Below, piece by piece: positions 27,001-30,000 of a stretch of DNA of 64,000 nucleotides. Within the stretch, counting starts at the first letter, position 1, and each line of letters starts with the position of its first letter. Position numbers: made by a program. The stretch lies in NCBI RefSeq assembly GCF_001677475.2, contig NZ_CP015229.1; one strand, given 5' to 3'. Origin of the DNA: Escherichia coli (GTDB lineage Bacteria; Pseudomonadota; Gammaproteobacteria; Enterobacterales; Enterobacteriaceae).

Positions 27001-30000
27001 TCAATGGCATAATCGATAACCTGAGCCATTCCCGGGAATGTAGCTTTTGCCTCATCGGTATCCATCCAGCGGCGACGCATCAGCCAGCGGCAGTCACTTA
27101 AATCAGCCTCCCGGCTCAGCCAGTCCCAGAAAACCTCATTCCGGCTGACAGTAGACACCTTAAATTCAGGCCCGAACGGATCGCTGTTTCGTCTGACCTC
27201 CACCCAACTGAGGCCCGCCTTGATTTGTTCCGCATAGGCATCAGAGCGGGCTTTATTCATATTGCCAAGGCGGCATGCATCGGCAAATTCAGCATTAATA
27301 GCTTCAGCCAGTTTTTCAGTTTCATCATCTGGCTCGTCTGACATCACCACCAGATCAGTACGTGTTTTGGCCTCCATTCCCAGAACGCCATCGACGGTAG
27401 GCGCGATGAGGTTATGGATAGTCATCGGCTGACCGCGATCTTTCAGTACCTGAAGAACTTCCGGTGGCAACTGATCGCCATCGTAATACGCACAGGCCTT
27501 GTTTGCGGCATCACGCCATTTAGGCTGGCTGTCAATATCAGAACAAAGCGCCTGTAACTGGCGCTGAGAAAAACGCGGCGTGGCTCCATTGTCGTTTTTC
27601 GTCGCCATGGTGTTAGTTTCATTTTTCATCAGTGAGCCATCCAGTGTGTAGTTCTGCGTTTATCCGTTTTCTGTTTTACCCTCACAGGCATTCTGGCGCG
27701 CATCTCCTGGGCAATCATGTAGCTCATGAGTTGATCATCAAAACAGCCTTCCTGTGCATTCATGGAGCCTTTCGCGTCATAAACGTAGGTGTTCATTTCC
27801 GATAATGTGCCTGACCAGCGGATCCCTGATATTCCATTATTCAGGAGCGTTTTCATTCCTTCGGTCAGAACAGGTTTGCTCTGACGGGTTGTCAGCCAGC
27901 CAAGACGGGGCGTATCGTCATCATATGCCTGATCAAGGTGCTGTTCGTTATAGATATAACGCGTCGGATAGAGCTCCCTGAGTTTCAGAATAACGGCATG
28001 TCCGTGATTGTTACGCTCCGGCCCCACAAACGCGTTGTTGTACATACGACAGACCTGCGCAATGAGATGAGCAAAAAGTTCAGCATCGAGATGCCCGAAC
28101 CAGTGAGCCACCTGCTCGCCATTACTGCGTTTGACAACATCCAGCGATGAGCGGTCTCCGTGCTCCAGCCCTTCGGCAGTATCTGCCCCACAAACATACT
28201 CTTCATCCGGATCCGGCAGTTCCCATACCAGCAGATAATTCATCAGCGTCCGCTGCAACTCGTTTTTATTTCCTTCACGCAGAGACTGAGCTTTAGTCTT
28301 CGCTCCTGTAACAGGTTCAATGTCATAAACAATCATCGGTGGCGAACAGAATGATTCTGCCTGCAACGTACTTTCGGCACTGAACACACGTCGTCCGGAC
28401 GTCAGAAACGCCTCCTGTGGCGTTGAGGGAAACTCCTGCTTCATTTCCTCACGCTGTTCAGTTTCCTTACTGATGTACCACTGCTTCTGCTCATCGGTAA
28501 GCGTGATGTTCATTGCCTTCTCAACCGCAGAAAAATACGTCATTTTTTCCCGTGACAGCTTCAGCCCGCTTTCAGGCACTCTGGCGCTGTATTTAGGATC
28601 CTGCCACCATGCGTAAAAATGGAATTTATAATCCTGTGCCGTCAGCAATAAGCCTGATGCAGTGATCTCCTGTGCACGGTTACTCATCTCGTAAAAATCA
28701 CCACCCACGCCTTCAGCCGTGGATTCATCAAAAATAATGCATTCATCAGAGACGGCATTAAGCGTACCGGTTCGCAGCTCTTTCGCCTTAGCCGGATATT
28801 TCGCGCAAATTTTGCCGTGCTCTGAGATATGCAGGCGCTGCACCGTACCTGAGCGAAATGAGGTTGCCACCTGAATACTCGAGCCGTGACCAAACAGGAT
28901 ATAGCCACCGCTGGCACCGCTACGACGCTCAACGATGGTGAATGAGGCTCTCAGCCAGTCAGGGAGATGATCAAACGGTACAGCAATTTTTGTGCGGAAA
29001 ATTTCACTGGCAGCCTGTTTATCCTGAGCGACGATCCCGCATTTGAGATGCGGAATGAATAATGCCTGGTCGAGAAGATAAATATCAATGGCTGTGGAAA
29101 ATCCCAGCTGGCGCGCTTTCAGGATAATGTTTTTATTATGCATGTTACGAAACAACTGACGTTGCGCCGGTCGCATTCTGAAGGTGACCAGTTCACCTTT
29201 TTCGTTCTGTATTTTGTAGAGATGATTGAGGCGCCACCAGGGATTGCTCAGTTTTGTCATAATGAACAGACGTTGTTCGGTCTCAGTCATTTCTGCAGGT
29301 TCATCACATCGCGGTTTATTCTTCCGGAATGTCATCCAGTCTCCCCGAATTACTCATTTCATGCAGCGATGACACGATGTCACTGACTGGCGTAATAACA
29401 CCCCGGCGCTGGCTGGTCAGAATATCGGTTTCCGCTCTGAGTTTATCTCTGGCGGCGTTGATTCTTTCCCGGTCAGCACGAAGTTTTGGTGCTGTCTCAG
29501 CCAGGACGTCCAGCGTCAGCAATGAGCGTTCAATTGACTCGATACGGGCAATATTCCGGTCAAGGGCCTGTTCAGCTTTGAGTATTTTGTCGTAAAGAGC
29601 AACGCGGTTTTCCACGTCAGTTGCCTCTTCCAGGTCGGCGAACATCCCTTTAAGTGCCTTAGTTACTGAAAGTGCGCGGGCCCGGGTGAACACCAGTTCA
29701 TCGAACAACACCATGTCGGACGCATCATCCATGAGGTTATCTGCCTCAAGATACTTCGCATATCCACGGTGTCTTACTGCGTGGGTGTTTCGCTGAGAAA
29801 AAGCGTTTGAAGGTGGTAAAAGTCGGGAACCTCGAATCCGTTTCGTTTCTGCCGAATTTGCGCAGTTTTTTTCAGAGTTATCTGCGCATTTTTCATCGCC
29901 GGAACCCGCGTCATTGCTGGGTTCTTCATCGGAGATGTCATGATCGATTTCATGATCGGTTTTATGATCAATTTCATGATCGATTTTGCCCATTTTTATA

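What the first reader, a model, noticed from the sequence alone, without database searches (positions are those of the whole stretch)
29938..29989. 12-bp tandem repeat (x4) encoding a His/Asp tetrapeptide array in the small terminase gene
An in-frame VNTR encodes (I/T)DH(E/K/D) repeats; its length could vary between isolates and might bind metal.
Basis: seen in the sequence. Interest (0 to 1): 0.3.

Follow-up and report, generated by a model that had tools for sequence, protein, structure and literature searches.

The report
Probable packaging-site repeats inside terminase gene
The four 12-base repeats in this prophage's small-terminase gene are real and vary in number between strains, but they are most likely the DNA marks that the terminase itself recognises to start packing the phage genome (as in phage P1), not a metal-binding peptide.

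Summary
A 12-bp x 4 tandem repeat (in-frame units at 29937-29984, minus strand) lies in a 268-aa small-terminase (TerS) gene of a stx-negative, 933W-like prophage. Public genomes carry alleles of 1, 2, 3, 4, 5 and 7 units. Four units is the form in about 95% of complete E. coli genomes that have the gene.

The His/Asp peptide is probably a by-product of the DNA. Each unit carries TGATC(A/G), the phage P1 pac hexamer, which contains a Dam site. The array starts just after a helix-turn-helix (HTH) related to the N-terminus of P1 PacA, where P1's own four-hexamer cluster lies in pacA.

Across the TerS family, the same stretch of DNA holds 4-10 copies of one hexamer (TGCGCA, TTCGCA, TGCGAA or GATCA):
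- They occur in all three reading frames.
- They are far more frequent than the peptide sequence requires.
- They are conserved islands in a fast-diverging, disordered-linker region.
- The region holding the GATCA array and HTH helices 2-3 differs as one block from the otherwise near-identical TGCGCA-type gene.

Best explanation (confidence 0.6): this is the TerS recognition array of a P1-like, probably Dam-sensitive, pac site. This is inferred, not shown. Metal binding is unsupported.

The parts
29316..30122 (-). terS, small terminase subunit, 268 aa
   Evidence: ORF. Matches PHROG 370 'terminase small subunit' at E=5e-123 over residues 1-268. No Pfam hit. AF2 gives an HTH, a disordered linker and a long helical hairpin.
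29988..30122 (-). Coding DNA for the N-terminal three-helix HTH-like domain (residues 1-45). Helix 3 (residues 35-41, YNTARTR) is at 30000-30020.
   Evidence: AF2 helices at 6-20, 24-31 and 35-41, pLDDT about 83. Aligns with the P1 PacA N-terminus at BLASTP E=0.003. Reciprocal PHROG cross-hits: this protein to phrog_1711 at 1.7e-5, PacA to phrog_370 at 1.9e-4. Foldseek neighbours are mostly HTH domains but none is significant.
29937..29984 (-). The 12-bp x 4 in-frame tandem repeat (IDHE IDHK TDHE IDHD). It is a copy-number-variable array.
   Evidence: Alleles of 1-7 units seen.
29941..29982 (+). Four hexamers on the + strand: TGATCG at 29941, TGATCG at 29953, TGATCA at 29965, TGATCG at 29977. 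On the coding strand they read YGATCA. Each contains a Dam GATC and they are spaced 12 bp apart. Proposed TerS binding sites, the counterpart of P1 pac HEX4.
   Evidence: Positions. Comparison with P1 pacA hexamers at nt 194-233 and 324-380, which flank the annotated pac cut sites. Synonymous resampling gives 4 observed against 1.2 expected, reached in 16 of 2000 resamples.
29987..29992 (-). Degenerate first site TGGGCA (gene nt 131-136). TGCGCA-class relatives and Salmonella GATC-class relatives have TGCGCA here.
   Evidence: where position 131 carries TGCGCA in most E. coli, Citrobacter and Salmonella lineages.
29859..29888 (.). Distal pair of palindromic TGCGCA hexamers (29859-29864 and 29883-29888; gene nt 259 and 235), read as Cys-Ala codons. 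This is the only place in the window where two TGCGCA lie less than 60 bp apart.
   Evidence: The same pair occurs in TGCGCA-class relatives at nt 292 and 304. This part is itself a 12-bp VNTR (KNCA) in relatives.
29766..29987 (-). Coding DNA for the disordered linker, residues 46-119
   Evidence: AF2 pLDDT is below 50 for residues 46-109 and 111-119.
29868..30062 (-). Divergent 'specificity cassette' (gene nt 61-255) comprising HTH helices 2-3 and the hexamer array. It is exchanged as a block relative to otherwise near-identical terS genes.
   Evidence: Sliding identity against the TGCGCA-class gene L101 is at least 90% for nt 1-60, 13-73% for nt 61-255, and 97-100% over most of nt 256 to the end (80-93% at nt 436-555), apart from a second divergent block at nt 286-345. 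Over gene nt 91-180 the cassette is 70-87% identical to Salmonella GATC-class gene L051, about the level of the rest of that gene (mostly 43-77%, some windows 87%).
27629..29335 (-). terL, large terminase subunit, 568 aa. It overlaps the end of terS.
   Evidence: ORF. Matches phrog_2 and other terminase large-subunit families. No BLASTP similarity to P1 PacB.

Best explanation
The repeat is primarily a DNA element. It is an array of four TGATC(A/G) hexamers, one per helical turn, that serves as the recognition part of the phage's pac site, the packaging initiation site.

Proposed mechanism:
- TerS is expected to form a ring. Each subunit carries an N-terminal HTH on a flexible linker.
- Several HTHs bind the adjacent hexamers, which lie in the DNA that encodes that same linker.
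- This recruits TerL to make the first cut nearby and start a headful packaging series.
- Each site contains GATC, so binding or cutting is probably sensitive to Dam methylation, as in phage P1.

The (I/T)DH(E/K/D) peptide is simply what the hexamers encode in this reading frame. It sits in a disordered segment that tolerates it. Slippage or unequal recombination between units changes the number of sites (1-7 observed), which should change the strength of packaging initiation.

What is shown here: the repeat, its polymorphism, the TerS identity and domain layout, remote homology of the N-terminus to PacA, hexamer identity and position relative to P1, and family-wide DNA-level conservation and class switching.

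What is inferred: that TerS binds these sites, that cutting occurs nearby, that Dam matters, and that copy number has any phenotype.
For: 1. The hexamer and its location match P1.
- P1 pac lies inside pacA and has seven TGATCA/G hexamers (HEX4 and HEX3) around the cut site. Synonymous mutation of the hexamers lowers P1 packaging about 9-fold (PMC10028697).
- In the P1 record the hexamers are at pacA nt 194-233 and 324-380. The annotated cuts are at nt 276-285.
- The window has four such hexamers at terS nt 141-182.

2. The TerS N-terminus is related to PacA's.
- BLASTP gives E=0.003, aligning W..F.R...G.T...NTAR motifs.
- Reciprocal PHROG hits are 1.7e-5 and 1.9e-4.
- In P1 the hexamers also encode DH/DQ dipeptides (MIIDHSNDQHAGDH).

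3. The pattern holds across the family.
- In 19 representative homologues, the 200 nt after the HTH carry 4-10 copies of one hexamer, with none or almost none elsewhere in the gene.
- The copies occur in all three reading frames (A-Q, V/L-R-K, C-A) at 9-15 bp spacing.

4. The peptide does not explain the motif.
- Synonymous-codon resampling gives 4-10 TGCGCA observed against 0.25-1.3 expected.
- No resample out of 2000 reached the observed count in 13 of 14 lineages.
- For the window's YGATCA the result is 4 observed against 1.2 expected, reached in 16 of 2000.

5. The hexamers are conserved islands. Pairwise identity is 0.86-0.95 in hexamer columns against 0.57-0.65 in the rest of the aligned stretch (gene nt 106-300).

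6. The hexamer class changes with HTH helix 3.
- ARR[YH][IL]K goes with TGCGCA (36 unique genes).
- AKRYIT goes with TTCGCA.
- AKRYIK goes with TGCGAA.
- ART[RQ]IK goes with GATCA (26 unique genes).
- An unrelated HTH type goes with GTACGC.
- HTH helices 2-3 and the array are exchanged as one cassette.

7. The same layout occurs in another TerS family, the Klebsiella phage L134 (Terminase_2 / phrog_51), with 6 + 3 TGCGCA.

8. 933W transduces host markers, and its virion DNA was inferred to be terminally redundant. This fits headful (pac) packaging (PMC3752737).

9. The linker is predicted to be disordered. TerS HTHs on flexible linkers are typical of the family (PMC9611059).
Against: - There is no experimental or read-end evidence here that packaging starts at this site.
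- Only one GATC cluster is present, where P1 has two flanking the cut. The distal pair is TGCGCA, a different hexamer. No IHF site was identified.
- TerL is unrelated to P1 PacB at BLASTP level, and the TerS C-terminal part differs from PacA.
- The helix-3 'code' is not simple. P1 has ARRYL yet uses TGATCA.
- The class switch may reflect only one or two evolutionary events.
- Alleles with 1 or 2 units exist, although each was seen once, in a draft assembly.
- Units within one gene share descent, so within-gene counts are not independent.
- MAFFT may favour aligning the motifs, which would inflate the result.
- One paper calls Stx phages cos phages (PMC7566468).
Confidence: 0.6

Rival explanations
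1. It is a neutral, slippage-prone coding VNTR. The repeat merely lengthens a flexible linker between the HTH and the oligomerisation core. The recurring hexamer is a by-product of duplicating one 12-mer and has no DNA-level role.
For: - Copy number varies from 1 to 7.
- The segment is predicted to be disordered.
- All alleles can be derived by gain or loss of whole units. The 7-unit allele is a 36-bp duplication.
- Linker length varies widely in the family, with proteins of 265-301 aa.
Against: - The hexamers persist in three reading frames and across lineages of only about 40% protein identity.
- They exceed synonymous-resampling expectation.
- They are conserved islands in a diverging region.
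- They switch class together with the HTH.
- They equal the experimentally defined P1 pac hexamer at the equivalent position.
Confidence: 0.22
2. The hexamer array is a binding site for TerS or another protein, but it regulates expression (for example autoregulation of terS-terL) rather than initiating packaging.
For: The same DNA-level evidence for a protein-binding array applies. The sites lie inside the 5' part of the terS coding region.
Against: The only characterised homologous arrangement, P1 PacA and pac, is a packaging site. No promoter or operator context was identified. pac sites commonly lie in terS genes, as in P22 (PMC9611059).
Confidence: 0.1
3. The encoded (I/T)DH(E/K/D) tetrapeptide array is a functional His/Asp metal-binding motif of TerS.
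For: Four His and five Asp fall within 16 residues. P1 PacA also has DH/DQ dipeptides at this place.
Against: - His and Asp are not conserved. Most homologues have AQK, EQK or SAQ here.
- The region is predicted to be disordered.
- Copy number ranges from 1 to 7.
- The DH dipeptide is the forced translation of GATCAY.
Confidence: 0.03
4. The repeat is an assembly artefact.
For: None found.
Against: An identical 4-unit sequence occurs in 348 closed-genome records at 99% identity or more to a 148-nt probe, and in independent phage genomes.
Confidence: 0.01

Closest known systems
Phage P1 pac site and PacA (pacase small subunit)
   Same: - The hexamer is the same, TGATC(A/G), with a Dam GATC.
- The first cluster has four copies.
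- The cluster lies inside the small-subunit gene, just 3' of the segment coding for a homologous N-terminal HTH.
- The hexamers are translated as Asp-His or Asp-Gln.
- The phage is a generalized transducer.
   Different: - The window's array is a regular 12-bp tandem repeat and is polymorphic in copy number.
- No second GATC cluster or annotated IHF site is present. The distal sites are TGCGCA.
- The rest of TerS (268 aa against 397 aa) and TerL (against PacB) are not detectably related to the P1 proteins.
- Nothing has been shown experimentally for this site.
pac sites inside terS genes of P22, Sf6 and SPP1-type headful phages
   Same: The packaging signal lies within or next to the terS gene. 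It is recognised by a ring of TerS subunits carrying N-terminal HTHs on linkers. In SPP1 there are multiple contact points around the cut (PMC9611059).
   Different: P22 uses a single 22-bp asymmetric sequence. There are no hexamer arrays and no Dam sites. The TerS families are unrelated by sequence.
Lambda cosB R-elements bound by gpNu1 (from my own knowledge, not tested here)
   Same: Several repeated short sites are bound by the TerS winged-HTH, with IHF-assisted bending, next to the cutting site.
   Different: Lambda is a cos system with fixed ends. The sites lie outside the coding sequence and there is no methylation dependence.
Protein-coding VNTRs of E. coli O157 used for MLVA typing (from my own knowledge)
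   Same: A short in-frame tandem repeat with strain-to-strain copy number differences, located in prophage DNA.
   Different: This one is much less variable. Its units are imperfect, the 4-unit allele is found in about 95% of carriers, and alleles track phage lineages.

Membership tests
Small terminase subunit (TerS), PHROG 370 | Full-length match to the family profile | tested here: met
   E=5.4e-123 over residues 1-268. There are 377 homologues, annotated 'terminase' where a name is given.
Small terminase subunit (TerS), PHROG 370 | Gene lies immediately upstream of terL in the late operon | tested here: met
   terL is at 27629-29335 and overlaps the end of terS. Lysis genes lie upstream.
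Small terminase subunit (TerS), PHROG 370 | N-terminal HTH, flexible linker, helical oligomerisation core | tested here: met
   AF2 gives helices at 6-41, a disordered stretch at 46-119, and a helical hairpin at 127-238 with pLDDT above 90. The HTH fold assignment is only qualitative. Oligomeric state was not tested.
P1-type pac site (hexamer-repeat pac within the small-subunit gene) | Cluster of TGATC(A/G) hexamers, each with a Dam GATC | tested here: met
   Four hexamers at 29941, 29953, 29965 and 29977. This is the densest GATC cluster in the window.
P1-type pac site (hexamer-repeat pac within the small-subunit gene) | Located in the 5' part of the small-subunit gene, after the HTH-coding segment | tested here: met
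   terS nt 141-182 against P1 pacA nt 194-233.
P1-type pac site (hexamer-repeat pac within the small-subunit gene) | Small subunit N-terminus homologous to PacA | tested here: met
   BLASTP E=0.003. Reciprocal PHROG cross-hits of 1.7e-5 and 1.9e-4. The relationship is remote and limited to about 100 residues.
P1-type pac site (hexamer-repeat pac within the small-subunit gene) | Two hexamer clusters (HEX4 and HEX3) flanking the cut site, with an IHF site between them | tested here: not met
   There is only one GATC cluster. The distal pair is TGCGCA. No IHF site was seen by eye, and no formal IHF scan was run.
P1-type pac site (hexamer-repeat pac within the small-subunit gene) | Large subunit homologous to PacB | tested here: not met
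   No BLASTP similarity; best E=5.5.
P1-type pac site (hexamer-repeat pac within the small-subunit gene) | Terminase cuts at the site; cutting depends on adenine methylation | not testable with these tools
   This needs virion end mapping and dam-mutant experiments.
Coding VNTR / contingency locus | Copy number polymorphism in whole units that keeps the reading frame | tested here: met
   Alleles of 1, 2, 3, 4, 5 and 7 units.
Coding VNTR / contingency locus | High mutability, meaning frequent switching within lineages | tested here: inconclusive
   369 of 386 E. coli records are within 95% of the 4-unit probe and 17 fall in the 3-unit band. 38 of 39 IMG/VR loci have 4 units. The 3-unit allele clusters in particular Stx2a phage series. 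This suggests low mutability, but no pedigree data were available.
His/Asp metal-binding motif | Ligand residues conserved among homologues | tested here: not met
   They are replaced by AQK, EQK or SAQ in most lineages.
His/Asp metal-binding motif | Measured metal binding | not testable with these tools
   This needs biochemistry.

The most novel reading that the evidence does not exclude
This may be a general 'self-addressed' packaging-specificity cassette. In several TerS families of enterobacterial and Aeromonas phages (PHROG 370, Terminase_2 / phrog_51, P1 PacA), the DNA that encodes the disordered linker right after the HTH would be that HTH's own binding-site array. Recombination that swaps HTH helices 2-3 together with the array would then re-programme pac specificity in one step.

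In 933W-type Stx phages the sites are Dam sites and their number is a VNTR. Packaging initiation, and with it phage yield and generalized transduction from Shiga-toxin phages, could therefore be tuned by copy number and methylation state.
Probability: 0.4. Interest if true: 0.7.

Novelty: new member of a known kind. Interest (0 to 1): 0.5.

Why it matters
933W-like phages carry Shiga toxin genes. Their packaging mode is stated inconsistently in the papers I could read: pac-like and transducing in PMC3752737, 'cos' in PMC7566468. I found no mapped pac site.

A concrete, testable pac candidate would:
- settle the pac-versus-cos question;
- explain how these phages transduce host DNA;
- give a handle for building packaging-defective or phagemid systems, as was done for P1.

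The family-wide pattern also offers a simple rule for predicting pac sites and TerS specificity from sequence alone. The pattern is an HTH followed by its own hexamer array, hidden in linker-coding DNA and swapped as a cassette. It is a clear case of a 'protein repeat' that is really a DNA signal.

If the rival is right and the repeat is a neutral linker VNTR, the finding is ordinary.

Tried and rejected
- The first IMG/VR pattern scan with exact flanks found only 1 locus, because the window has a rare synonymous flank (ATCTCC, usually ATCTCA). It was repeated with a degenerate base.
- Pfam found nothing for TerS.
- PDB sequence searches with full-length and N-terminal profiles found nothing meaningful.
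- Foldseek on the full model returned only generic helical hairpins, with HK97 TerS at rank 18 and E=0.59.
- Foldseek on the N-terminal domain gave HTH-type neighbours, but none was significant.
- TerL against P1 PacB showed no similarity.
- I looked for a phage-encoded Dam-like methyltransferase in the window using the [DNS]PPY motif on ORFs of at least 100 aa, and Pfam on ten early-region ORFs. None was found, so any methylation would come from host Dam.
- An upstream pair, TGTGCAaatat / TGATCAaatat at 30195-30223, looked like extra sites but is not conserved in close relatives, so I dropped it.
- I rejected a simple helix-3 recognition code, because P1 has ARRYL with TGATCA.
- Literature searches for a mapped 933W or Stx-phage pac site, or for TGCGCA arrays in terS genes, found nothing relevant.
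- The original P1 PNAS paper (PMC54894) is not held. P1 facts are cited from PMC10028697, PMC11260489 and the P1 GenBank annotation.
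Full report
**1. The observation**

Tandem Repeats Finder reports a period-12 array at 29934-29986 with 4.4 copies, 82% matches and score 78. It is one of eight arrays scoring at least 50 in the window.

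The array lies on the minus strand inside ORF 29316-30122, which encodes 268 aa. In frame the units are ATCGATCATGAA ATTGATCATAAA ACCGATCATGAA ATCGATCATGAC, encoding IDHE IDHK TDHE IDHD. They occupy gene nt 139-186, window 29937-29984.

The ORF is a small terminase:
- It matches PHROG 370 at E=5e-123 over its full length.
- It overlaps the start of a 568-aa large terminase at 27629-29335.
- It follows lysis genes.

The element is a 933W-like prophage of the Sepvirinae. 222 phage records, mostly Stx-converting phages, carry the gene at 95% identity or more.

**2. Is it polymorphic?**

Yes. At DNA level I read alleles with:
- 1 unit (L003);
- 2 units (L004);
- 3 units (L006, a closed genome);
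- 4 units (the majority);
- 5 units (L005, and L010 from IMG/VR);
- 7 units (L002, a 36-bp duplication of the first three units).

All are in frame and all can be derived by gain or loss of whole units.

Frequencies, measured with a 148-nt probe of the 4-unit allele:
- Among 5,426 complete E. coli genomes, 386 records matched. 369 were at 95% identity or more (348 at 99% or more). 17 fell in the 90-95% band, and the listed examples there span 136 nt, which is 3 units.
- Among 220 phage records, 159 were at 99% or more. 29 fell in the 3-unit band. 30 matched only up to the repeat.
- In the one such truncated genome I read (2012C-4227), a 3-unit allele is followed directly by an IS3-family element that truncates terS.
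- In IMG/VR, 38 of 39 loci have 4 units and one has 5.

So this is a real but rather stable VNTR. It is not an assembly artefact.

**3. Where the repeat sits in the protein**

AlphaFold2, run with a 42-sequence alignment, gives:
- a three-helix N-terminal domain (helices 6-20, 24-31, 35-41; pLDDT about 83);
- a disordered stretch at residues 46-119 (pLDDT below 50);
- a long helical hairpin at 127-238 (pLDDT above 90).

The repeat, residues 46-61, is the first part of the disordered linker. This layout is the general TerS layout described in a review (PMC9611059): an HTH on a flexible linker attached to a helical oligomerisation core.

Fold searches added little. The N-terminal model's neighbours are HTH DNA-binding domains, but none is significant. 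No solved relative was found by sequence.

**4. The peptide is not what is conserved**

Homologues have other short repeats at the same place:
- (S/N)AQK in other E. coli and Shigella prophages;
- xEQK and xAQK, or (S/N)D(Q/H)K, in Salmonella;
- SAQ and longer units in Aeromonas.

At DNA level these resolve into one recurring object. In 19 representative genes, the roughly 200 nt after the HTH-coding part carry 4-10 copies of a single hexamer, with none or almost none elsewhere in the gene. The copies are spaced 9-15 bp apart and occur in all three reading frames: xxT GCG CAx (Ala-Gln), xTG CGC Axx (Val/Leu/Met-Arg-Lys/Arg) and TGC GCA (Cys-Ala).

An unbiased 'most frequent hexamer' count over all unique genes held gives classes that go with HTH helix 3:

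| HTH helix 3 | Hexamer | Genes |
|---|---|---|
| ARR[YH][IL]K | TGCGCA | 36 unique genes |
| AKRYIT | TTCGCA | 2 |
| AKRYIK (Yersinia phage) | TGCGAA | 1 |
| ART[RQ]IK | GATCA | 26, including the window |
| A different HTH type (Klebsiella phage RCIP0034) | GTACGC | 1 |

The layout also occurs in a TerS with a different C-terminal domain. Klebsiella phage ST405-OXA48phi1.3 (Terminase_2 / phrog_51) has 6 proximal and 3 distal TGCGCA.

**5. Is the DNA motif more than the peptide requires?**

I resampled synonymous codons while keeping each protein sequence.
- The expected count of TGCGCA in the linker region is 0.25-1.3, against 4-10 observed.
- No resample out of 2000 reached the observed count in 13 of 14 lineages.
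- For the window's YGATCA the figures are 4 observed against 1.2 expected, reached in 16 of 2000.
- For the Salmonella GATC-class gene L051 they are 5 against 2.25, reached in 30 of 2000.

Within three lineage groups, pairwise identity is 0.86-0.95 in hexamer columns against 0.57-0.65 in the other columns of the aligned stretch (gene nt 106-300). The hexamers are therefore conserved islands in a fast-diverging region.

Two caveats apply. Units within one gene share descent, and the aligner may favour matching the motifs.

In the GATC class, GATCA is invariant in every unit I read. That covers 4 units in the window and 3 or 5 units in four Salmonella genes. All these arrays start at the same gene position, nt 142. 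Copy number therefore varies in that lineage too.

**6. The link to phage P1**

On the plus strand the window's four hexamers read TGATCG, TGATCG, TGATCA, TGATCG at 29941, 29953, 29965 and 29977. This is exactly the P1 pac hexamer TGATC(A/G).

P1 pac is a 161-bp site inside pacA. It has seven such hexamers (HEX4 and HEX3), each a Dam site, with an IHF site and the cut between the two clusters. Synonymous mutation of the hexamers lowers P1 packaging about 9-fold (PMC10028697; see also PMC11260489).

In the P1 GenBank record:
- pacA starts at 90529;
- the hexamers are at pacA nt 194, 201, 213 and 228, and at 324, 336, 347 and 375;
- the annotated cuts are at nt 276-285.

The first P1 cluster encodes MIIDHSNDQHAGDH. 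These are Asp-His and Asp-Gln dipeptides, as in the window.

PacA's N-terminus ([42 protein letters not shown]) aligns with the window's residues 4-45 at BLASTP E=0.003. The two proteins also hit each other's PHROG families over the first ~100 residues (1.7e-5 and 1.9e-4).

So the 12-bp repeat is the positional and sequence counterpart of P1 HEX4, downstream of a homologous DNA-binding domain.

The correspondence is incomplete:
- The rest of TerS differs from PacA.
- TerL is unrelated to PacB.
- There is no second GATC cluster. The distal sites are two TGCGCA at 29859 and 29883, the only close pair of that hexamer in the window.

**7. Cassette exchange**

I compared the window gene with an otherwise near-identical E. 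coli TGCGCA-class gene, L101:
- nt 1-60 are at least 90% identical;
- nt 61-255 are only 13-73% identical;
- most of nt 256 to the end is 97-100% identical (80-93% at nt 436-555), apart from a second divergent block at nt 286-345.

The divergent block holds HTH helices 2-3 and the array. Over gene nt 91-180 it is 70-87% identical to the Salmonella GATC-class gene, about the level of the rest of that gene (mostly 43-77%, some windows 87%).

So in this block the window gene is closer to the Salmonella GATC-class gene than to the E. coli TGCGCA-class gene, whereas outside it the reverse holds. This is what one expects if the recognition helix and its target sites travel together as a specificity unit.

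**8. Packaging mode of 933W-type phages**

Marinus and Poteete showed that 933W performs generalized transduction. They cite the sequencing observation that the virion ends could not be read, which was taken as terminal redundancy, and they proposed calling the enzyme a pacase (PMC3752737).

Another paper calls Stx phages cos phages (PMC7566468). A 2021 review of Stx phages does not mention terminase at all.

I found no paper that maps a pac site in these phages, or that describes TGCGCA arrays in terS genes.

**9. Interpretation**

Best explanation (confidence about 0.6): the repeat is the TerS-recognition array of a P1-like pac site, lying in DNA that also encodes a tolerant, disordered linker. 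The His/Asp peptide is its forced translation. Copy number changes alter the number of binding sites. The GATC in each site makes Dam sensitivity likely, and host Dam would suffice, since no methyltransferase was found in the window.

Binding, cutting, methylation dependence and any phenotype of copy number are all inferred.

Rivals:
- a neutral linker VNTR (0.22);
- a regulatory operator (0.1);
- a metal-binding peptide (0.03);
- an artefact (about 0).

**10. Novelty and score**

The kind of element is known: a pac site built of hexamer repeats within the small-subunit gene, as in P1. This would be a new member of that kind in a medically important phage group, with some differences:
- a regular tandem array that is polymorphic in copy number;
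- a single GATC cluster plus a TGCGCA pair;
- an unrelated TerL.

The broader pattern, in which an HTH and its own hexamer array are swapped as a cassette across several TerS families, is the more novel reading. It remains a hypothesis.

Interest is 0.5. The finding as originally written is ordinary. The re-interpretation is testable and useful, but it is not revolutionary.

Noticed in passing
window 33323-38474: The prophage appears to lack stx genes. Between the Q-like antiterminator ORF (37995-38474) and the nanS-p-like esterase (33323-35371; SASA, DUF1737, DUF6645) there is no stxAB-sized ORF. The region holds only small ORFs, including a 143-aa ORF at 35914-36345 of unknown role.
   Followed up: partly
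L049 1413-2845 (E. coli 2012C-4227); same match end-point in about 30 Stx2a phage records such as LC727843 (L048): An IS3-family element (terminal sequence TGAACCGCCCCGGG...) is inserted immediately after a 3-unit repeat allele and truncates terS. These Stx2a prophages should be packaging-defective unless complemented.
   Followed up: partly
window 29793-29852 (terS gene nt 271-330): This is a second small mosaic block in terS. Two alternative peptide forms, RIRGSRLLPPSNAFSQ and RNSRSGNPHPVARFSD, occur in otherwise near-identical genes. The window gene and L082 are 30-67% identical here and 93-100% identical elsewhere.
   Followed up: no
window 29859-29888; L050 1787-1811: The distal TGCGCA sites form a second 12-bp coding VNTR (AAAAACTGCGCA, KNCA). 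Relatives carry 1, 2 or 3 copies: CANL in L092, CAKNCANS in L050, and CAKNCAKNCANS in P0018.
   Followed up: partly
window 30195-30223: An 11-bp direct repeat, TGTGCAAATAT / TGATCAAATAT (coding-strand reading), lies about 80-100 nt upstream of the terS start and holds one more TGATCA. It is not conserved in close relatives.
   Followed up: yes
window 19645-19844: A 63-bp tandem repeat x 3.2 (score 344) lies inside the 681-aa ORF 18888-20933(-). On the coding strand it reads as Gly-X-Y collagen-like triplets, typical of phage tail fibres.
   Followed up: no
window 47933-47959 and 48514-48546: TTCCTG x 4.5 lies inside the 360-aa ORF 47345-48427, which has no Pfam hit. A perfect 16-bp x 2 repeat (TTGGTGTGACTGCACA) lies just upstream of it. 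Both are next to a DnaC/IstB-like ATPase gene (46598-47338) and could be replication-origin iterons or operators.
   Followed up: no
L134 (Klebsiella phage ST405-OXA48phi1.3) terS nt 138-398; L137 (Klebsiella phage RCIP0034) nt 130-245; L135 (Yersinia phage vB_YenM_29.18) nt 132-170: Other TerS families show the same 'HTH followed by its own hexamer array' layout: TGCGCA 6 + 3, GTACGCA x 6 and TGCGAAT x 4. These are candidate pac sites for those phages.
   Followed up: partly
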